A stretch of 64,000 bases of DNA from Rhodothermales bacterium (GTDB lineage Bacteria > Bacteroidota > Rhodothermia > Rhodothermales > Bin80). The stretch covers positions 2,796,450 through 2,860,449 of the forward strand of contig OZ244857.1 in the NCBI GenBank assembly GCA_965220935.1. The letters run 5' to 3'. The notes below the pieces were generated by a model, which worked only from the letters and a program-made list of their open reading frames with translations, was not told where the DNA came from and made no database searches. How positions within the stretch are numbered: the stretch's first letter is position 1; every line of letters begins with the position of its first letter. This document shows positions 3,038-11,899 of this stretch, in pieces. A program made the position numbers and the translations under genes.

Positions 3038-4459
3038 ATGGAGCATTATTTACTGTCAATCGGAATCCCTGCTATTGCATTTTTAATCGTCTTTAGATTT
3101 CAAATTAATTATTTGAGGCTTTCTAAGGGCACCTCTGTTAAAATTGGTGAGATTTTAACGAGTGATACCTTTAATCATCCCCTGCGATCAGCCGACTGGG
3201 CAATATTGATAGATTACTTTGATCGATTAGTTGAGCCTCCATTAGATAGGCTTCGACAACTGTCCAATGCTACTTTGGTCACTGGCATTGCAGGCACTAT
3301 GGGAATATTCCTCATAAAAATTGTGCTTATTCGAATTTACATTCCTGAATCCTCTGAAATACAAATACCACTTGAATTAATCGTGGGAGTAGCTATCGCT
3401 CTATGTTCAAGTTTACTTGGTTTAATATTTCATCTACATATCGTGAGAGCTTTGGGTCTTTCCCAAAGTAGAGTTAGTGAAAAACAGAGGGAATTATACC
3501 TCAAAATTAACCATTATTCAGATGACAAAGACATTACTCCAGATATGGAAGAATCTGGGGTTAAGTTTCTGGACGGTGCTCTAAAATTTCTTAAAGAGCA
3601 ACGTACTACCACATCCAAACTTGATCAATTGCTTAAACCGCAGCAAGAAATTTCTCAAAAAATGTCCAATTTTATGGATTCACTGAATGAGCAATCTCGT
3701 ACAAGTCAAAAGACAATCACAGATTTAGAAGGAGCGATTCAAGGCATGAACACCTATCAAACCAAGATCTTGCAAGATAGTCAAGAATTATTTTCTGACT
3801 TGTCACATTCTTCCAAAGAGATTAACGAAAATGTTGATCAACTGACTAAGGAATTAAAGGCGCTTCCCACAGCAATTACCCGAGCGCTGGATATGAGCGA
3901 TGAGTTTGAGAAACAAGCTGGACGTCATATAAACGAGTTGCACAAGATGTTTAATGAACACCAAGGCTTTCTTTCTAACGAGATAGTGCAAAATCAGAGA
4001 CAGGTCCAGTCGCAACAAATTGCCCATCTTGAGGCGGCTTTGGAAAAAGTTCTGAAAATCGTGAAAGGCCCCATAGAGTCAGAAATACGTGATCCTTTGA
4101 AAAAAGTAAGTCAACAATTGCATAACACATCACAGGCAATGAAAAACGTTTCAGAACAGTTTAATACAGACCTGAAGCAGGCCTTAGAGAAAATGCCAGA
4201 GGCGGCAACAGAGTTCAGTTCAAGTATTCAAAAATCATCCGATACCTTTTCTGGAATATCCGAGAAATTGCAAGCATCAACCAAGACTATTCACGAAATT
4301 GTGGATGACAGCACGACTAGGGCCTTTGAGCCTCTCTTAGGCGATATGAAAGATTTCATGAATACGATAAGAGATACTCACGAAAGACTGTCAGAAGTTG
4401 TACAGGGTCTTGTGCAACTGATTGATGATCTTGTGCAAGGGATCAATAAGAAAAAGTAA
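3038..4459 (+). CDS. zorA: ZorA-like MotA/TolQ/ExbB-family membrane protein with long coiled-coil tail
   Basis: Three hydrophobic segments including VTGIAGTMG and ALCSSLLG (MotA/ZorA helix motifs), then about 330 aa of heptad-rich helical tail. Translationally coupled (TAATG) to a MotB-like gene. Confidence 0.75.
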   Translation: MEHYLLSIGIPAIAFLIVFRFQINYLRLSKGTSVKIGEILTSDTFNHPLRSADWAILIDYFDRLVEPPLDRLRQLSNATLVTGIAGTMGIFLIKIVLIRIYIPESSEIQIPLELIVGVAIALCSSLLGLIFHLHIVRALGLSQSRVSEKQRELYLKINHYSDDKDITPDMEESGVKFLDGALKFLKEQRTTTSKLDQLLKPQQEISQKMSNFMDSLNEQSRTSQKTITDLEGAIQGMNTYQTKILQDSQELFSDLSHSSKEINENVDQLTKELKALPTAITRALDMSDEFEKQAGRHINELHKMFNEHQGFLSNEIVQNQRQVQSQQIAHLEAALEKVLKIVKGPIESEIRDPLKKVSQQLHNTSQAMKNVSEQFNTDLKQALEKMPEAATEFSSSIQKSSDTFSGISEKLQASTKTIHEIVDDSTTRAFEPLLGDMKDFMNTIRDTHERLSEVVQGLVQLIDDLVQGINKKK

Positions 4460-5220
4460 TGAAGCGGCATAGTAAGACGCAGATTACTGTGTGGCCCGCC
4501 ATTACAGATTTAATGACTGCCGTGACAATCATTGCTATTCTGGGGAGTATTGTTGGACATAATCTTTCATCGGGCCGAGAGCCAGATGATATCACAGAGC
4601 GTGAACGAATCCTTTTGGAGTTAGACGCAGCCCGCACTTCTATCTTGAATGAGTTCAAAAAAGAACTGTCAAAATATGATTTGAATGTGGAAATTATTGA
4701 CGACGAGGGAGTACTACGGCTACATGACGATGCTATCAATTTTGGATTCTCTGAAGAAGCGCCGCTGCCAGAGCACCAGATAAATGTTGGAATCCTTGCG
4801 CAAGTATTAGCCGATATTGTACCCTGCTATAGCAATCAAATCATCCTTAACGGTAAAAAGTCTTACTCCAGGCCGAATTATTGCAACTCATCTACTAAGT
4901 TTAAATGTGGTAAGAATAAATATAAGTGGTTGATTGGCACAATACTTATTGAAGGCCACACCGACAGCGTTCCTGTGGGACGGAAGCATCGTTTAAATAA
5001 TAATCTTGAACTATCTTCAGTACGTTCTGCCTCTGTATATAAGATGATTACTGATTGTGAACCTTCAATCAATAAAATGCGTAATTCTAAGGAGAGTCCC
5101 ATCTTCAGTACGAGTGGTTATGGAGACATGAGACCTGCAATAGAAGGAAATTCTCACGATAAAAAAAATAGACGGATTGATATACGGCTACTTCTTGAGC
5201 CCCGCCCTGATAAAGATTAG
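4459..5220 (+). CDS. zorB: ZorB-like MotB/OmpA-family protein
   Basis: WPAITDLMT (conserved Asp in the TM helix), then ILIEGHTD, NLELSSVRSASV, SGYGDMRP and NRRIDIR OmpA-like peptidoglycan-binding motifs. Confidence 0.85.
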   Translation: MKRHSKTQITVWPAITDLMTAVTIIAILGSIVGHNLSSGREPDDITERERILLELDAARTSILNEFKKELSKYDLNVEIIDDEGVLRLHDDAINFGFSEEAPLPEHQINVGILAQVLADIVPCYSNQIILNGKKSYSRPNYCNSSTKFKCGKNKYKWLIGTILIEGHTDSVPVGRKHRLNNNLELSSVRSASVYKMITDCEPSINKMRNSKESPIFSTSGYGDMRPAIEGNSHDKKNRRIDIRLLLEPRPDKD

Positions 5221-5341: not shown

Positions 5342-6485
5342 TTAAGAGTGGGTTGGCCGATTTTTGGTGCCTTCTGGATACACATCAAGTCCACCAAGAT
5401 AGAAGTAAATTGCATTCTTTAATCGTTCAGGATTTCTGAATCCACGCGCACGGATTTTGATCATTTTGATGCTTTCAGCCGGCCCATTACTCACATCTAG
5501 AACCACCGCATTGATCATGCCCCAAAGATGATTTCTAATGGTTTTAGCCACTTTTTTCATCGGTTCCAGACGACTGCGTGAGAGCCATCCTAACTTCCAC
5601 GCTTTGAGCGCCCAAGTGCGATGTTTATACTTCCACAGCGTCTGGAACACTTCTTTCATTGCCCGAGCGCGTGCTGTTTTTTAAGAGACTAAACCGCTTT
5701 TTTTGCTTGGCCCGATTCTTAAGCCAATCATACTTTGTCCCTACCAGATCCAGAATCCCCAGTTTCTTTAACGCACGATTCTCCTCTCTGCGAACCTCAT
5801 CTACCCCAGTTCCAACATATTTAGAGAAATGAAAATGATTAAATGCAATCTTGCATCGGGTCTACGCATCCTTGTTGCAGTGATGTAGGCAGGCCACATA
5901 TCCATACTCACATGTTCAATCCCTGCAATTTGCTCAGGTGAACAACGATCGTAGTACTAACTCTCTATTGTTGGTGACACATGTAACACCGTACCGATCC
6001 GATATAATCGTCACATAATTATGTCCCTTCTTGGATGCGGTCTCATCTACGCAGATGTGAGGCACGATCTTCTCTGGCTTGCGCTCCAATCCACGATCCA
6101 TAATATGAGCGATCATCGTCCAACTCACCCCTAAGCGTTTCGCGATCACTGAAATGCTGGTTGCAATCCATCACACAGCCTCAAACATGGACGTGAATTG
6201 CACACGAGCATCGGCCCAAGGAACCGAAATTATACTCACACCATGCTGTGGACACTGCACACGGGGCCACCTCCGTACGATAATCACAGATATTAGTATG
6301 GCGCCATCGGCGCTCTCGGTGATCATACCCCGGACACACCTTCCCACACTCCGGACACCTTAACTCCGCATCCCCCGAAAGCGCTACATGGATCCTCGCC
6401 GCATAACGACTCGTCTCCTGCTCAATCTCGGACACGGTGACGCAATACCAATCAAATGATTCATATCCGTTATTTTTAAAGCCAT
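5342..6485 (-). pseudogene. ISL3 transposase, multiply frameshifted
   Basis: Fragments in different frames: CPECGK..YDHRERRWRH (Zn finger), ICVDETASKKGHNYVT, SNGPAES..IKIRARGFRNPERLKNAIYF. Confidence 0.9.
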
Positions 6486-6598
6486 CTTTTTTTGATAAGT
6501 TGAAGGATAGAGGGGTTGTCCGAAAATTAGTTGACGTTCAATATTCTGGGAACCATCTACTGGTATCCTTACCCATTCCATATTATCAACATTAACTC

Positions 6599-7624
6599 AT
6601 GCTATTACCTGAAGATTTTGGACAGTTACAGCAGACCTTAGAAGAAGCTGGGGCCTCTGGGCAACAGTTACGCGTGTCTCTGTTACGCCACTGTAGTGAC
6701 TTGATCCAGCACCTCACGCACGACCTTGGCATGCCCAGTGCTCTTGACACTACGTCTGATTCTGCTCAAGAACCCATTCATGCAGATCCAGAAGAAGAGA
6801 CATCGACAGCGCCTTTGTCGTCGCCCAGTTTCCCCGAATATGGGGATGAGTCCGATCTCCATCAGATTCGCATGGAGGCGCTGGAAGTCTTTGATCACCG
6901 CCGTCTTGACGAAGAGACCTATGCCGTGTTGTGGATGGATGTGCTACGCGTCTGGGGTGCACCCTTCTTGCTGTGTATGGGCTCTACTTTGGAAGGCGAT
7001 CGGCGTATGTTAGGATTTGAGCAGGCCTCCGCACAGAATATCGCCCGTGTGACGCATTTGTTTGCGTCGCTTCTCCATCGTGGACTGTCGCTTGACGATG
7101 GACTGCTTTGTATCACCCCCGTCACCGTCACGCTGGATCAGGTGCTAATGGACCTGGGTGGTGAGCGCATTCGCCTGCAGCATTGCCATCTGCACAAGCG
7201 TGAACGGATCGTAAGTGTTCTCACCGAGGAGCAACAAACCCAGATGCGGGGGCAGATCAACCGTGCCTTCTCCATTCCTGATGCCAAACAGGCACGGGAG
7301 GCGCTCTTGCGGATTCATGACCGCCTCCTGCGATGGAATCGTTCGGCTGCCCAGCGTCTGTTCAAGGATCTGGATCTATGTCTGACCTTGCATCAAACCG
7401 GACGGTATGAGCACTTGAGTCGCAGTCTGCGCACAACCTCTTGCGTTACCCATACCGTGCAGTATGTGAATCAGCGACTGCGAGGCATCCGTCACTGGCT
7501 GTCTCCCCAGTCGCGTCGTGCACAACTCGAACTGTTGCTGCTGGAACGCGAATCAAAGATGCATCGACTCGCTCATGCTTCGTATCTTTCTTCCATGCAA
7601 ACGTCTCTGTTTCCTTCCACATAA
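6599..7624 (+). CDS. IS256 transposase-like paralogue lacking two of three DDE residues
   Basis: Colinear with the C-terminal two-thirds of the adjacent transposase: YAVLWMD vs YVVLMID, LLCITPV vs LLVCIDG, LQHCHLHK vs VQRCTWHK, RTTSCVTH vs QTTNIIES. Uninterrupted 341-aa frame. Confidence 0.8.
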   Translation: MLLPEDFGQLQQTLEEAGASGQQLRVSLLRHCSDLIQHLTHDLGMPSALDTTSDSAQEPIHADPEEETSTAPLSSPSFPEYGDESDLHQIRMEALEVFDHRRLDEETYAVLWMDVLRVWGAPFLLCMGSTLEGDRRMLGFEQASAQNIARVTHLFASLLHRGLSLDDGLLCITPVTVTLDQVLMDLGGERIRLQHCHLHKRERIVSVLTEEQQTQMRGQINRAFSIPDAKQAREALLRIHDRLLRWNRSAAQRLFKDLDLCLTLHQTGRYEHLSRSLRTTSCVTHTVQYVNQRLRGIRHWLSPQSRRAQLELLLLERESKMHRLAHASYLSSMQTSLFPST

Positions 7625-7717
7625 TGGATCTCTCCAGACGTTGCCAGCAAGAACGACAAAAACCCATAGGTTCTGTCGTTTCTGTTTCTCTTTTTACTCT
7701 TTAATCTACCCAATTTA

Positions 7718-9082
7718 ATGAAAACAACCTATCGACAAGGTCTCCCCGAACGAGACAATGGCTTTATGGAGCTCTTTGAAGAAGAGCTTCAAGATGATGT
7801 CAGCGCAGGGAAGTTAGTGGATGATTATGTCACAATGGCGCAGGAGATCCTTGCCCTGCTGTTAATTGACAATGAAGTAGAGCATTTATGTGGAGCGTAC
7901 GCGAAGCATGACGATGTCCATGAGGGGCGCTATCAACGGTGGGGATCCAATCCAGGCTCCATCAAGATTCAAGGGGAGCGACTGCCGATCCGAGTCCCCC
8001 GTGTCCGCGATAGGGTGACCAAGAAAGAGGTTCCTCTCCAACGCTATCAGAAGTTGCGTAAACTGCCACCGAAGCAACAAGAGCATTTGACCAATCAGGT
8101 CTTCTATGGACTCACGCAGCGTAACTATCGCAAAGTGGTCCGTGCCTTCATCAATGGCATCGTTCCCTTCAAATCCTCGGTCAGTGAGGCATTCATTGAG
8201 CAAAGTACGCGAGAGTTGGAAGCGTTTGAACGGCGCCAGATCGGATCCGAAACGTATGTGGTCCTCATGATTGACGGCAAATATATGCGTGAACGCCAAA
8301 TCTTGCACTGTGTGGGTATTACCGAAGAGGGTCAGAAGCGGGTTCTGGGATTCGTAGAGGCGACGACGGAGGCCGTTGAGGGGTTATTGTTGAATCTGAT
8401 TGAACGCGGCTTGCGTTATGAGAAGGGACTGCTGGTCTGCATTGATGGAGCCAAAGGACTTCGTAAAGCGGTCGAGGATGTCTTTGGGGAGTATGCTCAG
8501 GTGCAACGTTGCACCTGGCACAAACGGGAGAATGTGCTCGGGAAAGTGAGGCAAGCGTCAAAACAACGTATCAAATCGAAACTCAATGATGCGTATAAGA
8601 CCACAGAGTATGACGAAGCCAAGCAGAAGTTGGACACCCTCTGTGATACGCTGGACAAAGAAGGAGAAGGCATGGCCGCCAAGAGCTTGCGGGAAGGCTT
8701 AGAAGAAACCCTGACACTCCAAAAACTCGGAGTGGTGGACGAATTGGGAAGGAGTTTCCAGACGACCAATATCATTGAGAGCATCAATAGCGAGCTTGAA
8801 GCGAACCTCAAGCGGATCAAACGCTGGGTGAACTCAAGTCAGTATCACCGATGGATTGCCATGTCCATCATCAAGAGCGAGCAGAACTTCAACCCCATTG
8901 CTGGATCCAGTCATCTGCCAACGCTGCAGAAAGCACTTCTGGAGCGGGTGCCATCCATGGAGAAAGCACCCAACCCGAGGCAAAATGAACACAAGATACC
9001 CCCTATGGATTCAACAGAATCTGTACATAAAGAGCAAATGAAGTCTATCTCTAATCGGATAAGAATTCCGAACGTCAACTAA
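7718..9082 (+). CDS. IS256 (Mutator)-family DDE transposase
   Basis: RVPRVRDR, LMIDG, CIDGAKGL, QRCTWHK and TTNIIES motifs; the stop codon lies inside the right inverted repeat. Confidence 0.95.
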   Translation: MKTTYRQGLPERDNGFMELFEEELQDDVSAGKLVDDYVTMAQEILALLLIDNEVEHLCGAYAKHDDVHEGRYQRWGSNPGSIKIQGERLPIRVPRVRDRVTKKEVPLQRYQKLRKLPPKQQEHLTNQVFYGLTQRNYRKVVRAFINGIVPFKSSVSEAFIEQSTRELEAFERRQIGSETYVVLMIDGKYMRERQILHCVGITEEGQKRVLGFVEATTEAVEGLLLNLIERGLRYEKGLLVCIDGAKGLRKAVEDVFGEYAQVQRCTWHKRENVLGKVRQASKQRIKSKLNDAYKTTEYDEAKQKLDTLCDTLDKEGEGMAAKSLREGLEETLTLQKLGVVDELGRSFQTTNIIESINSELEANLKRIKRWVNSSQYHRWIAMSIIKSEQNFNPIAGSSHLPTLQKALLERVPSMEKAPNPRQNEHKIPPMDSTESVHKEQMKSISNRIRIPNVN

Positions 9083-9256
9083 TTTTCGGACAACCCCAGG
9101 ATAGATCTAAACTACTATAATAATCCTTACCTAACCTTATTCTTGTTACCCTCGTTTACCCATTTCTGAAAATATCACCCACTTAAAAAATGGGAGGCCC
9201 CAAAATTTATGCCTCATTTGAAATATACCCAAGGATGTCCTTAAATTCACGGTAGC

Positions 9257-11899
9257 ATGAAGCAGAAAAATTACCGACACACGGCGGATGATATTCTTTT
9301 ACTCCTAAGAGATGGCCTCAAGCCCTTTGTGAAACGACAGATAGATCTCGCAACCAAAAACAGAAAACTCCCCCCTGATTGGGAGCAGAAATTTTTTGCA
9401 AAACGTAGGCAACACTCCTCCAAATCATTTGAGGATTGGGATGTATTGGATCTGCTACATTTTTTTGAATTTAGTCGTAGTCTATTCAAAGATTTTCTGG
9501 GAAAAGTCGCATTCAAGTCTCTGCGTAAACTCAGAAATTATAGGAATCTCTGGGCGCATCAAGAACCCTTGAATAAGAAAGATATTATCAATGTTCTTGA
9601 GTTAATTATTCATTTATTAACCTCAATTTCGTCAGCTGATCAGCTAAATAAAGCAAAATCTCTGTTGTACGATATCGTGAATGAACCCATTAAATCAGAT
9701 GCCGAAAATATTTCTGGATCCAATCGTGAGGAACGTGACGAAATTAATGATAACAACTCAGATCGGGCGAGAAAAGATCATAAAACCAAAAACAGTAATA
9801 GCCACATCATATTTAGAAAATGGCGGACGGCCAGTCTCGCAGCATGCTTGCTGATTATTGCTGGTACACTGATGACTTGGTCGCTAGGACAGGAAGAAAG
9901 TTCCCCGCCTCCTGTAGATGGATTGTGTTATCAATTAAATGATTATCAGAATATGGACCTGGACGATGCAATGGTGGAGGTTTTTAACCAGTGCGCTGAT
10001 GATGGCCATGCCTATGCCCAAACCTTTATTGGGGTGAAACAACTCATTTCTGGAGATTGTGACGCAGCTTTGAAGTGGTTGACCGAGGCAGCTGATCGGG
10101 AAGATTCTCAAGGTCAATTTTGGCTTGGATACATGTTTACACACGATTACTGCGGACAAAAAGACCTTGATCAGGCTTTAAATTGGTTGCACTTGTCGGC
10201 AGATCAGAATTATGTCCCTGCCCAAAATTTGCTCGGGGACATTTATCTATATAATCTAGATAAACAAAACTTTGAAGAAGCAAAAAAATGGTATGATCTG
10301 GCGTCCATTCAAGACTCTGTCCATGCCCAATTCGGCTTAGGTGAATTATTTCTAACTGGACTGGGCGTACCCCCAGACATTGCAAAAGCAAAACAGCATT
10401 ACCACACTGCGGCGAATCAAAATCATACCGATGCGCAGGTCATGCTATGCGAAATATATATATATGGCTTCGGAGTAAATCAGGACTATCAAGAATCGTT
10501 CAAATGGTGCAAATTAGCGGCCGAAAATAATCACCCCGATGCACAATATCTTATGGGTTCAATGTATCTCTATGGTCTTGGCGTGCATGAGGATGTTGGA
10601 GAATCTATAAAATTGTATCAATTAGCCGCACAGCAAGGACATGTAGACGCACAGCATAGCTTGGGGATGCTGTTCTTACTCATGTACGAATTTAATCAGA
10701 ATAATGATCTGATTATTGAGTATCTATCTTGGTTCCGACAAGCAGCCACAAATCAGAGAAATTCGTTGGTTATATATGATGAGCATTTGCCTACCCAGTT
10801 GGAGTCTTGGATTGACTCGCTTGGTAGTCACCCATACAATCAATCTCGTAGATGGCGCCGCCTCACCGATAATCAAGGCCAGATAAAATCACAATTTAGG
10901 CTCGGTGAGATATATTATGATGGGATAGGAGTTGCAAGAGACGATGTCATAGCCATCAAATGGTATCGGGAGGCCGCTAGTGGCGGATTGGACCGTGCAC
11001 AAAATTCTCTTGGAGATATGTATCGTAAAGGACAGGGTGTACGGACTGATTTTGAAAAAGCACTGGAGAATTATCGCCTTGCTGCCGACCAAGATTATCC
11101 TCCAGCCCAGACATCCCTAGGTGAAATGTATCTCTTTGGCCAAGGGGTTGAAAAACGGCCAGCAGAAGCCGTGCAACTGTTTCACCGTGCAGCCGACAGT
11201 GGAGATGCCCAAGGGCAGGCATGGCTGGGTTGGGTTTATGGAAACGCGAAAAACTATAGAGAAGCCCTAAAATGGCTCCTTGAATCCGCAAATCAAGAAA
11301 ATGAACTTGGCATTATTCTACTCCAATTGATCTCAGCTACTAATCAGGGCATCCCACAAGATCCAATAGCACAATTACAGTTGGGCCTGATGTTCAAAAA
11401 TGGTGACATCGTTCCTCATGTACCCCAGCAGGCTGTAAAATTCTTTGAACTTGCGGCAGACCAGGGAAATGCTGATGCGCAATTACAGTTGGCCGAGATG
11501 CTTATAAATGGTGACGACATCAATCCAAATCCAGAAAGAGCATGCAGATTATATCAATTAGCTGCTGATCAGGGGCATTCTGAATCGCAATTCCAGTTAT
11601 ATCTGCTGTTTTCCAGCGGGCGAGGAGGATGTGAAAAAGATGATGATCTCGCCTGTAAATGGCTTCGTCAAGCCGCTAATCATCAACATGCGGAAGCACA
11701 ATACCGACTCGGACTAATTTATTATCACGGGCGGACTCATTGTGTAGAAAAGGACATCATTGAAGCCTACGCTTGGTTTGATATTTCTGGAACAACCGAA
11801 GCAAATCAAGCCAAAGAACAATTGAAAATGAGCCGTTCTCAAACACGCCAAGGGCAGGAGCGCTCATCCGAGATTCGTAGCCAGATGAACTCAAAATAA
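9257..11899 (+). CDS. Swt1-like HEPN domain - transmembrane helix - about 15 Sel1-like repeats
   Basis: N-terminal GLKPFV..WDVLDLL..RNYRNLWAHQ (RxxxxH HEPN motif); acidic linker; basic residues then hydrophobic SLAACLLIIAGTLMTW; repeated AQxxLGxxYxxGxGV...AxxWxxxAAxQ units. Confidence 0.85.
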   Translation: MKQKNYRHTADDILLLLRDGLKPFVKRQIDLATKNRKLPPDWEQKFFAKRRQHSSKSFEDWDVLDLLHFFEFSRSLFKDFLGKVAFKSLRKLRNYRNLWAHQEPLNKKDIINVLELIIHLLTSISSADQLNKAKSLLYDIVNEPIKSDAENISGSNREERDEINDNNSDRARKDHKTKNSNSHIIFRKWRTASLAACLLIIAGTLMTWSLGQEESSPPPVDGLCYQLNDYQNMDLDDAMVEVFNQCADDGHAYAQTFIGVKQLISGDCDAALKWLTEAADREDSQGQFWLGYMFTHDYCGQKDLDQALNWLHLSADQNYVPAQNLLGDIYLYNLDKQNFEEAKKWYDLASIQDSVHAQFGLGELFLTGLGVPPDIAKAKQHYHTAANQNHTDAQVMLCEIYIYGFGVNQDYQESFKWCKLAAENNHPDAQYLMGSMYLYGLGVHEDVGESIKLYQLAAQQGHVDAQHSLGMLFLLMYEFNQNNDLIIEYLSWFRQAATNQRNSLVIYDEHLPTQLESWIDSLGSHPYNQSRRWRRLTDNQGQIKSQFRLGEIYYDGIGVARDDVIAIKWYREAASGGLDRAQNSLGDMYRKGQGVRTDFEKALENYRLAADQDYPPAQTSLGEMYLFGQGVEKRPAEAVQLFHRAADSGDAQGQAWLGWVYGNAKNYREALKWLLESANQENELGIILLQLISATNQGIPQDPIAQLQLGLMFKNGDIVPHVPQQAVKFFELAADQGNADAQLQLAEMLINGDDINPNPERACRLYQLAADQGHSESQFQLYLLFSSGRGGCEKDDDLACKWLRQAANHQHAEAQYRLGLIYYHGRTHCVEKDIIEAYAWFDISGTTEANQAKEQLKMSRSQTRQGQERSSEIRSQMNSK

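What the first reader, a model, noticed from the sequence alone, without database searches (positions are those of the whole stretch)
6512..9097. Two-gene IS256-family element carrying a catalytically dead transposase paralogue
Seen: perfect 28-bp IRs and an 8-bp TSD enclose both ORFs, so they moved as one unit. ORF1 is colinear with the catalytic domain of ORF2 and keeps the first Asp and the CxxH motif, but has lost the second Asp (CIDG vs CITP) and the Glu (TTNIIE vs TTSCVT). It also has an unrelated acidic N-terminus. It is very divergent from ORF2 yet has no stops, unlike the decayed ISL3 genes around it. Known: IS256 members normally encode one transposase. Inference: ORF1 may be a maintained pseudo-enzyme subunit (regulator, heteromer partner or targeting factor), defining a new IS256 subgroup.
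Basis: partly seen in the sequence, partly recalled or inferred. Interest (0 to 1): 0.7.

Follow-up and report, generated by a model that had tools for sequence, protein, structure and literature searches.

The report
Two-gene IS256 element, dead paralogue
This is a real, recently active jumping gene of the IS256 family that, besides its normal transposase, always carries a second, selected gene for a catalytically dead and DNA-binding-less copy of that enzyme, which suggests the transposase works with, or is controlled by, a pseudo-enzyme partner.

Summary
Window 6512-9097 is a 2586-bp element with perfect 28-bp inverted repeats and an 8-bp target duplication. It is one of nine 99-100% identical copies in this 4.08-Mb Rhodothermales genome, and both genes are intact in all nine.

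- **ORF2 (454 aa):** a complete IS256/Mutator DDE transposase.
- **ORF1 (341 aa):** a paralogue of the catalytic plus insertion domain only. It lacks the second Asp and the Glu. Two N-terminal helices and an acidic disordered linker stand where ORF2 has its DNA-binding domains.

- **Selection:** ORF1 homologues are under purifying selection (pN/pS 0.22 against 0.14 for ORF2).
- **Linkage:** 45 of 55 related loci keep ORF1 directly before ORF2, and no ORF1-less copy was seen.

Dead proteins and partner transposases each form one clade with matching deep branches. In the genomes sampled the family occurs in one Rhodothermales family only.

I lean to a non-catalytic transpososome subunit (0.4) over an Inh-like inhibitor (0.3).

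Five literature searches listed no paper describing it. This scan noted the same architecture twice before on other DNA. I rate it a new variant of a known kind.

The parts
6504..6511 (.). left copy of the 8-bp target-site duplication AGGATAGA
   Evidence: The flank with a single TSD copy matches 18 uninterrupted paralogous sites in the genome across the junction.
6512..6539 (+). left terminal inverted repeat (28 bp)
   Evidence: Exact reverse complement of 9070-9097. Only two matches in the window. The same end is present in all 9 genome copies.
6599..7624 (+). ORF1: 341-aa catalytically dead paralogue of the transposase core
   Evidence: Pfam PF00872 E 1.2e-9 over residues 91-295. NCBIfam IS256 67.9 bits, below the 150-bit cut-off. 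BLASTP to ORF2 E 1e-31. pN/pS 0.22.
6611..6724 (+). ORF1 residues 5-42: two N-terminal helices. The second one (LRxSLLRHxSxLIxxL) is conserved in all dead subfamilies.
   Evidence: AF2 model helices 5-16 and 19-42 at pLDDT about 58-70. L28 and L39 are conserved in 92% and 88% of 26 dead-family rows. Alignment. dN/dS 0.18.
6725..6847 (+). ORF1 residues 43-83: acidic disordered linker ending in the EYGDE motif. It stands where ORF2 has its beta-hairpin DNA-binding and HTH domains.
   Evidence: pLDDT below 50 for residues 41-81. Residues 46-87 have 11 D+E and 0 K+R. dN/dS 0.49 for residues 46-78.
6848..7621 (+). [quoted passage not shown]
   Evidence: pLDDT mostly above 85. Foldseek top hits are ISCth4 TnpA 6xg8/6xgx/6xgw, E 8e-10, TM 0.58. 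hhalign aligns it to ORF2 160-413. pI 9.5.
6938..6940 (+). ORF1 codon 114 (Asp): the first catalytic Asp, kept here
   Evidence: Kept in 69% of 26 dead-family rows.
7118..7120 (+). ORF1 codon 174 (Pro) at the column of the second catalytic Asp
   Evidence: No dead-family row read has Asp at this column.
7448..7450 (+). ORF1 codon 284 (Thr) at the column of the catalytic Glu
   Evidence: The Tnp family has Glu in 98% of rows. In the dead family the commonest residue here is Ala (27%), and no dead-type ORF read has Glu.
7646..7686 (+). hairpin followed by a U-rich stretch in the ORF1-ORF2 spacer (candidate attenuator, specific to this lineage)
   Evidence: MFE -17.8 kcal/mol for the 99-nt spacer, z -2.45. 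The stem is kept through base changes in the G019 relative. It is absent from the G026 and G037 versions. The consensus terminator scan did not list it.
7718..9082 (+). ORF2: 454-aa IS256-family DDE transposase
   Evidence: PF00872 E 2.6e-34. NF033543 216.8 bits, above the 150-bit cut-off. The family profile hits ISCth4 TnpA 6xg8 at E 3e-35 over residues 15-359. The AF2 model has two N-terminal helices, a beta-hairpin, an HTH, and a catalytic plus insertion domain.
8273..8275 (+). ORF2 D186 (first catalytic Asp)
   Evidence: Invariant in alignment A3.
8368..8369 (+). site of a 9-bp in-frame deletion (loss of 3 residues in the conserved TENA motif), shared with one other copy
   Evidence: Contigs of runs X4, X5 and X13 carry the 9 extra bases.
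8444..8446 (+). ORF2 D243 (second catalytic Asp)
8777..8779 (+). ORF2 E354 (catalytic Glu)
9070..9097 (-). right terminal inverted repeat (28 bp); it overlaps the last codons of ORF2
9098..9105 (.). right copy of the target-site duplication AGGATAGA

Best explanation
Shown here: the region is one copy of an active IS256-family insertion sequence whose mobile unit holds two genes.

ORF2 is a full transposase. It has a two-helix N-terminal module, a beta-hairpin DNA-binding domain, an HTH, and a DDE RNase-H domain with a CxxH insertion domain.

ORF1 lies upstream on the same strand. It is an old paralogue of the catalytic plus insertion domain only. It has lost Asp2 and Glu, and deep relatives have also lost Asp1 and the His. 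It has lost both DNA-binding domains. It carries instead a conserved amphipathic helix pair and an acidic disordered linker.

ORF1 is under purifying selection, always travels with a partner transposase, and has co-diverged with it.

Inferred: ORF1 works on the element's own transposition through contact with ORF2. My odds are about 0.8 that it acts in transposition at all.

The mechanism I commit to (0.4): ORF1 is a non-catalytic subunit that the transposase needs or is strongly helped by. Its N-terminal helix pair docks on the transposase. Its basic, dead RNase-H/insertion core then binds or bends DNA at an element end, flank or target. In the ISCth4 transpososome the catalytic domain of protomer A already plays such a role without using its active site.
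For: Mobility as one unit:
- There are 9 copies at 99-100% identity, and 7 of 9 have perfect 8-bp duplications.
- 18 uninterrupted paralogues of the target site exist in the genome.
- There is no inner IR.
- In relatives with different end sequences both ORFs again lie inside the IRs, with 8-bp duplications: G019 2587/2599 bp, G026 about 2509 bp, G037 3917 bp, G040 2665 bp.

Selection:
- ORF1 pN/pS is 0.22 (P 2e-12) against 0.14 for ORF2. Other pairs give 0.50 and 0.28.
- Within the near subfamily, ORF1 amino-acid identity is about equal to that of ORF2.

Linkage:
- Of 55 loci, 45 are tandem and 32 have both ORFs intact. ORF1 is intact with ORF2 broken, partial or absent in 11 loci, and the reverse holds in 3.
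- 8 of 8 further transposase hits that I fetched from genomes of the same family also have a dead ORF directly upstream.
- This genome holds no other IS256-type gene.

One origin and co-divergence: the dead clade has SH-aLRT 100, the partner clade 99, and the three deep subclades match between the two.

Fold and charge: ORF1 84-341 is modelled with confidence and is closest to ISCth4 TnpA. This part has pI 9.5.

Precedent for a non-catalytic role of such a core: passages of PMC7780238 state that loop I and loop II of CD_A widen the minor groove and steer the transposon tip into the active site of CD_B. The Trp of the loop II region is kept in 77% of dead rows and 94% of transposase rows.

Operon layout: the spacer is 3 nt in G037, and the open reading frames overlap in the third subfamily.

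Indirect argument against a pure inhibitor: no ORF1-less or ORF1-null lineage has expanded among the 55 related loci. The three ORF1-broken copies with an intact ORF2 are singletons.
Against: - No binding, activity or expression data exist.
- ORF2 keeps every domain of a self-sufficient IS256 transposase, and ISCth4 TnpA alone carries out all steps in vitro (PMC7780238 passages). So a helper is not obviously needed.
- ORF1 lacks the two interfaces that hold the ISCth4 dimer together (DD and HTH) at the sequence level. Any docking is therefore conjecture.
- Loss of both DNA binding and catalysis, an upstream position, and a possible attenuator hairpin before ORF2 all fit a negative regulator equally well.
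- Known transposon-encoded truncated transposase forms are mostly inhibitors (recalled: Tn5 Inh, P-element KP).
- The WG hairpin motif that I first read as 'loop I' is invariant only in the near subfamily, not across all 26 dead rows.
Confidence: 0.4

Rival explanations
1. ORF1 is a trans-dominant negative regulator. It binds the transposase, either through its helix pair as a poison subunit or through its acidic linker on the DNA-binding domains. It thereby blocks dimer formation, end binding or cleavage and keeps copy number tolerable. This would be a separately encoded counterpart of the Tn5 inhibitor protein.
For: - ORF1 has lost the DNA-binding domains and the active site but keeps the fold.
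- Its linker has 11 acidic and 0 basic residues and could mimic DNA.
- It is the first gene. In this lineage a hairpin plus U-rich tract precedes ORF2, which would favour an excess of ORF1.
- ORF2 has all the domains of a transposase that works alone in ISCth4 (PMC7780238 passages).
- Recalled precedent: Tn5 Inh, IS1 InsA, IS911 OrfA and P-element KP are mostly inhibitory.
Against: - A separately encoded inhibitor is free to be lost, yet it is kept in all three deep subfamilies with constraint close to that of the transposase.
- ORF1-null copies have not expanded.
- The element still reaches 9 to at least 32 copies per genome.
- The hairpin is specific to one lineage.
Confidence: 0.3
2. ORF1 has a role outside the chemistry of its own element. 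It might steer target choice, exclude rival IS256 elements, or serve the host as a passenger gene.
For: It is selected, has a basic core, and carries family-specific conserved residues that transposases do not share: A94, W112, C126, N247, G268, L277 and R323.
Against: - The 7 perfect duplications in this genome share no motif, so nothing points to sequence-specific targeting.
- ORF1-type genes were seen only next to a partner transposase or in truncated copies, never as fixed single host genes, in the loci read.
- The trees of the two genes match.
- This genome has no other IS256-type element to exclude.
Confidence: 0.1
3. ORF1 is a functionless relic. It would be the remnant of a second IS256 copy that inserted next to, or nested with, the active one and is decaying.
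For: It is a paralogue that lacks its N-terminus and its catalytic residues, as a relic would.
Against: - There are no stops in 9 of 9 copies here.
- Length is kept at 316-347 aa down to 46% identity.
- pN/pS is 0.22-0.50 with P from 2e-12 to 5e-3.
- There is no inner IR remnant.
- The same architecture occurs in three deep subfamilies with different IRs.
Confidence: 0.02

Closest known systems
IS256 family insertion sequences (IS256; ISCth4, whose transposase TnpA is solved as PDB 6xg8/6xgw/6xgx, PMC7780238)
   Same: ORF2 is a Mutator-family DDE transposase above the NCBIfam IS256 cut-off, with a CxxH insertion domain and the ISCth4-like domain order. The element has terminal IRs of 28 bp and 8-bp duplications.
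   Different: - It has two genes and is 2.6 kb long. PMC7780238 describes ISCth4 as a 1,503-bp IS with a single ORF (passages).
- The extra gene is a dead, truncated paralogue of the transposase.
- The subterminal TGTAAA motif noted for the family in PMC7780238 is not present in the first 40 bp of either end.
Tn5 inhibitor protein Inh (recalled; no paper read here)
   Same: A transposase form that lacks the N-terminal DNA-binding part but keeps the core. It acts through protein-protein contact with the full enzyme.
   Different: Inh is made from the transposase gene itself through a second start and keeps the catalytic residues. ORF1 is a separate gene at 28% identity, with the active site gone and an N-terminal module of its own. 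An inhibitory effect is not shown here.
PiggyMac and its catalytically inactive PgmL paralogues in Paramecium (PMC6143343; search listing and abstract only)
   Same: Catalytically inactive paralogues of a DDE (DDD) transposase that work together with the active one.
   Different: Those are domesticated, immobile host genes of a eukaryote and belong to another superfamily. Here the dead paralogue sits inside a mobile bacterial IS.
Two-gene transposons with an unrelated helper: MuDR mudrA/mudrB, PIF/Harbinger Myb-like protein, IS21 IstB (recalled)
   Same: The transposition module consists of a transposase plus a second element-encoded protein. MuDR belongs to the same Mutator superfamily.
   Different: Those helpers are not paralogues of the transposase.

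Membership tests
IS256 family (element) | Mutator-type DDE transposase recognised by the curated family models | tested here: met
   ORF2 scores PF00872 119 bits (cut-off 21) and NF033543 216.8 bits (cut-off 150).
IS256 family (element) | DDE triad and C/DxxH motif in a helical insertion domain | tested here: met
   ORF2 has D186, D243, E354, C265 and H268, all invariant in the 33-row alignment A3. The profile matches ISCth4 TnpA at E 3e-35.
IS256 family (element) | Terminal inverted repeats of some 20-30 bp and 8-9 bp target duplications (family description recalled from ISfinder/TnPedia) | tested here: met
   The IRs are perfect over 28 bp. 7 of 9 copies have perfect 8-bp duplications.
IS256 family (element) | One transposase ORF in an element of about 1.2-1.5 kb (recalled; PMC7780238 gives 1,503 bp and a single ORF for ISCth4) | tested here: not met
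   The element has two ORFs and is 2586-2596 bp here. Relatives are 2.5-3.9 kb.
IS256 family (element) | Subterminal TGTAAA motif in the IRs (PMC7780238 passage) | tested here: not met
   The motif is not in the first 40 bp of either end. The nearest match is TGTCCGAAAA at positions 6-15.
IS256 family (element) | Copy-out/paste-in transposition through a circle with abutted IRs | not testable with these tools
   The runs held are contigs only, and no circle junction was seen among the joints. That does not show absence.
IS256 transposase (ORF1 as a member) | Score above the NCBIfam cut-off and a complete DDE triad | tested here: not met
   ORF1 scores 67.9 bits against a cut-off of 150. It has P174 and T284 in place of Asp and Glu. 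It is a homologue, not a transposase.
Inh-like poison subunit | Lacks the DNA-binding N-terminus but keeps the core fold | tested here: met
   ORF1 aligns only to ORF2 160-413. There is no N-terminal homology. The fold matches ISCth4 TnpA.
Inh-like poison subunit | Forms inactive heteromers with the transposase and lowers transposition | not testable with these tools
Pseudo-enzyme partner of an active paralogue (PgmL-like) | Paralogous to the enzyme, catalytic residues lost, kept by selection | tested here: met
Pseudo-enzyme partner of an active paralogue (PgmL-like) | Required for the activity or assembly of the active enzyme | not testable with these tools
   There is only indirect support: constant linkage and co-divergence.

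The most novel reading that the evidence does not exclude
The IS256 transposase of this subgroup works only as a hetero-oligomer with its dead paralogue. Gene duplication would then have hard-wired a non-catalytic DNA-shaping or end-marking subunit into a copy-out/paste-in transpososome. This would be the first bacterial insertion sequence with an obligate pseudo-transposase, and a natural handle on how one asymmetric IS256 dimer deals with two ends.
Probability: 0.3. Interest if true: 0.8.

Novelty: new variant of a known kind. Interest (0 to 1): 0.6.

Why it matters
IS256-type elements are treated as single-gene transposons. The one structural study left open how an asymmetric transposase dimer recognises the second end (PMC7780238 passages).

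This subgroup has kept a dead, DNA-binding-less paralogue through deep divergence. That suggests the paralogue fills a non-catalytic role in transposition or its control, and the idea can be tested directly: express ORF2 with and without ORF1 on a mini-element.

It is also a clean bacterial example of a pseudo-enzyme maintained inside a selfish element. Annotation pipelines will label ORF1 as a second or partial 'IS256 family transposase', which hides it. The family carries Pfam PF00872 in the precomputed tables, and no source gives it a name.

Tried and rejected
- **Complex prediction of ORF1 with ORF2:** The tool was then declared unavailable. No verdict.
- **Expression:** no RNA holder listed among the 24 runs.
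- **Promoter and terminator scan of 6400-9250:** counts were no higher than in shuffles. The scan's own terminator pattern did not list the spacer hairpin.
- **Homology between the ORF1 N-terminus (1-87) and the partner N-terminus (1-165):** none (hhalign E 0.68). The idea that the ORF1 helix pair is a diverged dimerisation domain rests only on position and helix lengths.
- **Read-through or frameshift fusion of ORF1 and ORF2:** rejected. The spacer has an in-frame TAG, and it is 93 nt in five copies and 94 nt in four.
- **Nested or tandem IS artefact:** rejected, because there is no inner IR.
- **Symmetric change at IR position 24 as a sign of end-to-end copying:** weakened, because mixed T/C copies exist in G019.
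- **ESM Atlas:** only generic Mutator-family clusters.
- **Plasmid collection:** 0 of 72,556 records has a match covering at least 80% of ORF1. The 6 records that matched hit only the core region, 5 of them under a gene annotated as a transposase.
- **Rfam and tandem-repeat scans of the 1.5-kb tail of the G037 version:** nothing.
- **Literature:** five full-text searches listed no paper on a two-gene IS256 element with a dead paralogue. I saw listings and abstracts only, apart from passages of PMC7780238. ISfinder cannot be reached from here.
- **Origin of ORF1:** unresolved. With midpoint rooting the dead clade joins outside all sampled transposases on a long stem. So duplication of the element's own gene cannot be told from capture of another one.
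Full report
**1. What is in the window**

IRL 6512-6539 and IRR 9070-9097 are exact 28-bp reverse complements, flanked by the direct repeat AGGATAGA at 6504-6511 and 9098-9105. A 23-nt IR probe with up to 3 mismatches finds only these two sites in the 64-kb window, and none in 100 shuffles. There is therefore no inner end between the genes.

Two ORFs lie on the + strand: ORF1 at 6599-7624 (341 aa) and ORF2 at 7718-9082 (454 aa).

- ORF2 passes the curated thresholds for a Mutator/IS256 transposase: PF00872 at 119 bits and NF033543 at 216.8 bits against a cut-off of 150.
- ORF1 matches the same models only partly: PF00872 over residues 91-295, and NF033543 at 67.9 bits, below the cut-off.
- The two proteins align at 28% identity over 245 residues, E 1e-31. 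The family profiles align with 100% probability, ORF1 88-341 to ORF2 160-413.
- ORF2 has D186, D243, E354 and C265/H268. ORF1 has D114, P174, T284 and C196/H199.

**2. The element is mobile and recent**

The genome (4,076,850 bases, one contig) holds nine full copies of 2586-2596 bp at 99-100% identity. It also holds a 602-bp right-end fragment and a short end remnant.

- Seven of the nine copies have perfect 8-bp duplications. One has the repeat offset by one base, and one has none.
- The seven duplications share no motif.
- All nine copies encode an uninterrupted ORF1 of 341 aa and an ORF2 of 454 aa (2 copies) or 457 aa (7 copies).
- The window copy and one other lack 9 bp at 8368/8369. This removes three residues of a motif (TENA) that is conserved in the transposase family.
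- tblastn finds no other IS256-type gene in the genome.
- A query made of the left flank with one duplication copy joined to the right flank matches 18 other places across the junction at 92-97% identity. The element thus sits in one copy of another repeat, next to decayed ISL3 transposase fragments.
- Contigs of four further sequencing runs from different studies cover the whole element, and in two of them (X4, X13) one contig spans both ORFs. No joint removes ORF1. The only joints are the uninterrupted paralogues of the flank.

**3. Anatomy of the two proteins**

The ORF2 family profile matches one solved protein, ISCth4 TnpA (6xg8), at E 3e-35 over its residues 15-359. The ORF2 model (mean pLDDT 79.8) shows the following order:

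- two N-terminal helices (14-26 and 28-58);
- a beta-hairpin (72-98);
- helices 108-147;

This is the order described for ISCth4: dimerisation domain, NDB, HTH, then catalytic domain with insertion domain (passages of PMC7780238).

The ORF1 model (mean pLDDT 78.4) has these parts:

- two helices (5-16 and 19-42) at moderate confidence;
- a disordered stretch (41-81);
- a confident core (84-341).

The best structural matches of that core are the ISCth4 chains (E 8e-10, TM 0.58).

ORF1 therefore lacks the two DNA-binding domains. In their place stands a linker with 11 acidic and no basic residues. The core is basic, with pI 9.5. The ORF1 N-terminus has no detectable sequence relation to the ORF2 N-terminus (hhalign E 0.68). 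It does sit in the same position, as a helix pair of similar size.

**4. ORF1 is a selected family**

A search of 5.8 billion clustered proteins gave 11 clusters at 46-100% identity, all 316-347 aa long.

A profile search of 1.84 billion representatives gave 4527 hits at E <= 0.001. I read the catalytic columns of the best 150:

- 27 have a residue other than Asp at the second-Asp column.
- 8 shorter pieces lack that column and have no Glu at the Glu column.
- The rest are DDE-intact proteins, mostly of 400-450 aa.

Among the 26 dead-family rows that I aligned with 51 transposases, the residues that transposases keep around the active site are not kept. These are DGK, DGxKG, RCxxHKxxN, SLxEG and TTNxIE. 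Core residues are shared, and the Cys of CxxH is invariant. Asp1 is kept in 69% and the His in 50%.

Selection:

| Pair | Gene | Nonsyn / syn differences | pN/pS | P |
|---|---|---|---|---|
| window vs G019 | ORF1 | 34.5 / 50.5 | 0.22 | 2e-12 |
| window vs G019 | ORF2 | 42.5 / 89.5 | 0.14 | 2e-29 |
| G026a vs G026b | ORF1 | 147.8 / 107.2 | 0.50 | 6e-8 |
| G041 vs G040 | ORF1 | 9.0 / 11.0 | 0.28 | 0.005 |

- Within ORF1 of the window-G019 pair, dN/dS is 0.18 for the helix pair, 0.49 for the linker and 0.17 for the core.
- Pairs with dS above about 1.5 are saturated and I do not rely on them.

**5. The two genes always go together**

A pattern scan of one genome per species returned 55 loci, all in seven assemblies labelled Rhodothermales or Rhodothermaceae. 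My tally of those loci:

- 45 have an ORF2-type hit within 500 nt downstream on the same strand.
- 4 have it displaced by inserted DNA.
- 6 have none in the flank held (one of these is at a contig end).
- 32 have both ORFs intact.
- 11 have ORF1 intact and ORF2 broken, partial or absent.
- 3 have the reverse.

Element ends were found in four further lineages with different IR sequences:

| Lineage | Size | Ends |
|---|---|---|
| G019 | 2587/2599 bp | related IRs, 8-bp duplications |
| G026 | about 2509 bp | imperfect IRs, 8-bp duplications |
| G037 | 3917 bp | perfect 30-bp IRs, with about 1.5 kb of ORF-less DNA after ORF2 |
| G040 | 2665 bp | imperfect IRs, 8-bp duplication |

Both ORFs lie inside the ends each time.

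Distribution:

- Among 285 genomes of the order, matches at E <= 1e-45 occurred in 30. I read the triads in 30 loci. The dead type occurs only in family f1 (genera g1, g2, g4, g5, g6, g7, g11). The matches in f10, f24 and f25 are DDE-intact transposases.
- In a sample of 401 genomes of the phylum, the matches outside f1 start at model position 74 or later in open frames of 398-473 aa. I judged these to be transposases from that alone, without reading their triads, except for the two loci already read.
- I fetched eight further transposase hits in f1 genomes that looked solitary. All eight have a dead ORF of about 300-334 aa directly upstream, and some are decayed. This third subfamily has lost Asp1 as well.

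**6. Tree**

I built a quick IQ-TREE of 77 rows, with SH-aLRT support only.

- Rows: 14 dead and 10 partner proteins from loci, 5 transposases from other families of the order, and 12 dead and 36 DDE-intact representatives that I picked as full-length from the 150. Fragments and the remaining representatives were left out.
- The 26 dead rows fall on one side of a branch (SH-aLRT 100).
- The 10 partners fall in a clade of 14 (SH-aLRT 99). The 4 other members of that clade are database proteins of unknown context, and three of them are near-identical to partners.
- Three deep subclades recur in both halves: the G023 type, the G034 plus G041 type, and the window/G019/G020/G026/G027/G037 type.

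This fits one origin of the pair followed by co-divergence. Kin share history, so it does not by itself show physical interaction. The root is a midpoint root only. Whether ORF1 arose from its own partner gene is not resolved.

**7. How it most likely works**

Shown: ORF1 cannot cut DNA by the DDE mechanism, and it lacks the domains that read the IR. It is nevertheless kept by selection wherever this transposase clade occurs.

Inferred: it acts on transposition through protein contact.

Arguments for a needed or helping subunit:

- Its constraint is close to that of the transposase.
- A separately encoded gene has never been lost across three deep subfamilies.
- No ORF1-null lineage has expanded.
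- The operons are tight (3-nt spacer in G037, overlapping frames in the third subfamily).
- In ISCth4 a catalytic domain already has a non-catalytic job. Loops I and II of CD_A bend the tip into the active site of CD_B, while recognition of the second end is described as unclear (passages).

Arguments for an inhibitor:

- ORF2 keeps all the domains of a transposase that suffices in vitro for ISCth4.
- ORF1 lost both functions rather than one, so it is an add-on and not a division of labour.
- The linker is acidic.
- ORF1 comes first.
- A hairpin with a U-rich tail lies before ORF2, though in this lineage only.
- Precedents recalled from Tn5, IS1, IS911 and P elements are mostly inhibitory.

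My odds are 0.4 for a subunit, 0.3 for an inhibitor, 0.1 for another role and 0.02 for a relic. The rest is unassigned.

**8. Comparison and novelty**

The element meets the IS256 criteria for transposase type, triad, IRs and duplication length. It fails the single-ORF and 1.2-1.5-kb description, and it lacks the TGTAAA motif (membership table).

Five full-text searches listed no description of such an element. I saw listings and abstracts only, apart from passages of PMC7780238, and ISfinder could not be consulted.

Two earlier notes of this scan (e1-4868659 and e1-3984256) describe the same architecture on other genomes. They are unchecked AI notes and are not independent evidence, but they mean this scan has met the kind before.

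I class it as a new variant of a known kind.

**9. Limits**

- There is no expression, binding or activity evidence.
- The complex prediction could not be run.
- The tree is a quick one.
- The distribution rests on one genome per species and on samples.
- dN/dS rests on a few unsaturated pairs.

Noticed in passing
window 6535 and 9074; genome copies; L032-L038: Position 24 of both IRs is a C/T polymorphism. In this genome five copies are C/C and four are T/T. In G019 the left end is always T, and the right end is C in three copies and T in three. The right-end change also alters an ORF2 codon (Val to Ile), because ORF2 runs into the IRR.
   Followed up: partly
L047 6305-7819 (G037 version of the element): This relative is 3917 bp long. 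About 1.5 kb after ORF2 has no ORF of 90 aa or more, and it holds an internal 190-bp direct repeat at 82% identity. There is no Rfam match and no tandem repeat.
   Followed up: partly
dead proteins of the G041/G034 subfamily (L099, L109, P0023, P0040), linker region: The linker of this subfamily carries a small Cys cluster (CxC/CxxC) where the window's protein has its acidic stretch. It could be a zinc knuckle (alignment).
   Followed up: no
window 7646-7686: A hairpin followed by a U-rich stretch lies between ORF1 and ORF2. It is kept with base changes in G019 and is absent in the G026 and G037 versions. It is a candidate attenuator of transposase expression.
   Followed up: partly
window 5342-6435 (minus strand) and flanks 6312-6511 / 9106-9305: Decayed ISL3 transposase pieces lie here (PF01610 C-terminal part and the ISL3 zinc ribbon). 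The flank of the IS belongs to a repeat with at least 18 uninterrupted copies in the genome.
   Followed up: partly
window 9257-11899 (+): An 880-aa protein has an N-terminal Swt1-like HEPN domain followed by nine Sel1 repeats.
   Followed up: no
L125 2759-3793 and L126 2968-4002 (G023); P0030: These are 345-aa proteins with an intact DDE triad but a short N-terminus. They lie downstream of decayed dead ORFs, and they look like transposases that have lost their DNA-binding part.
   Followed up: no
L031 (G019) 3914-5072: In this copy, similarity to its sister copies stops 46 nt after the ORF1 stop. It keeps the left end and ORF1 only, and no ORF2 lies within 4 kb.
   Followed up: partly
L123 1472-4136 (G040): The IRs of the third subfamily share the core TAGTTG at positions 17-22 with the window's IR, although the rest differs. 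This fits common descent of the ends together with the genes.
   Followed up: partly
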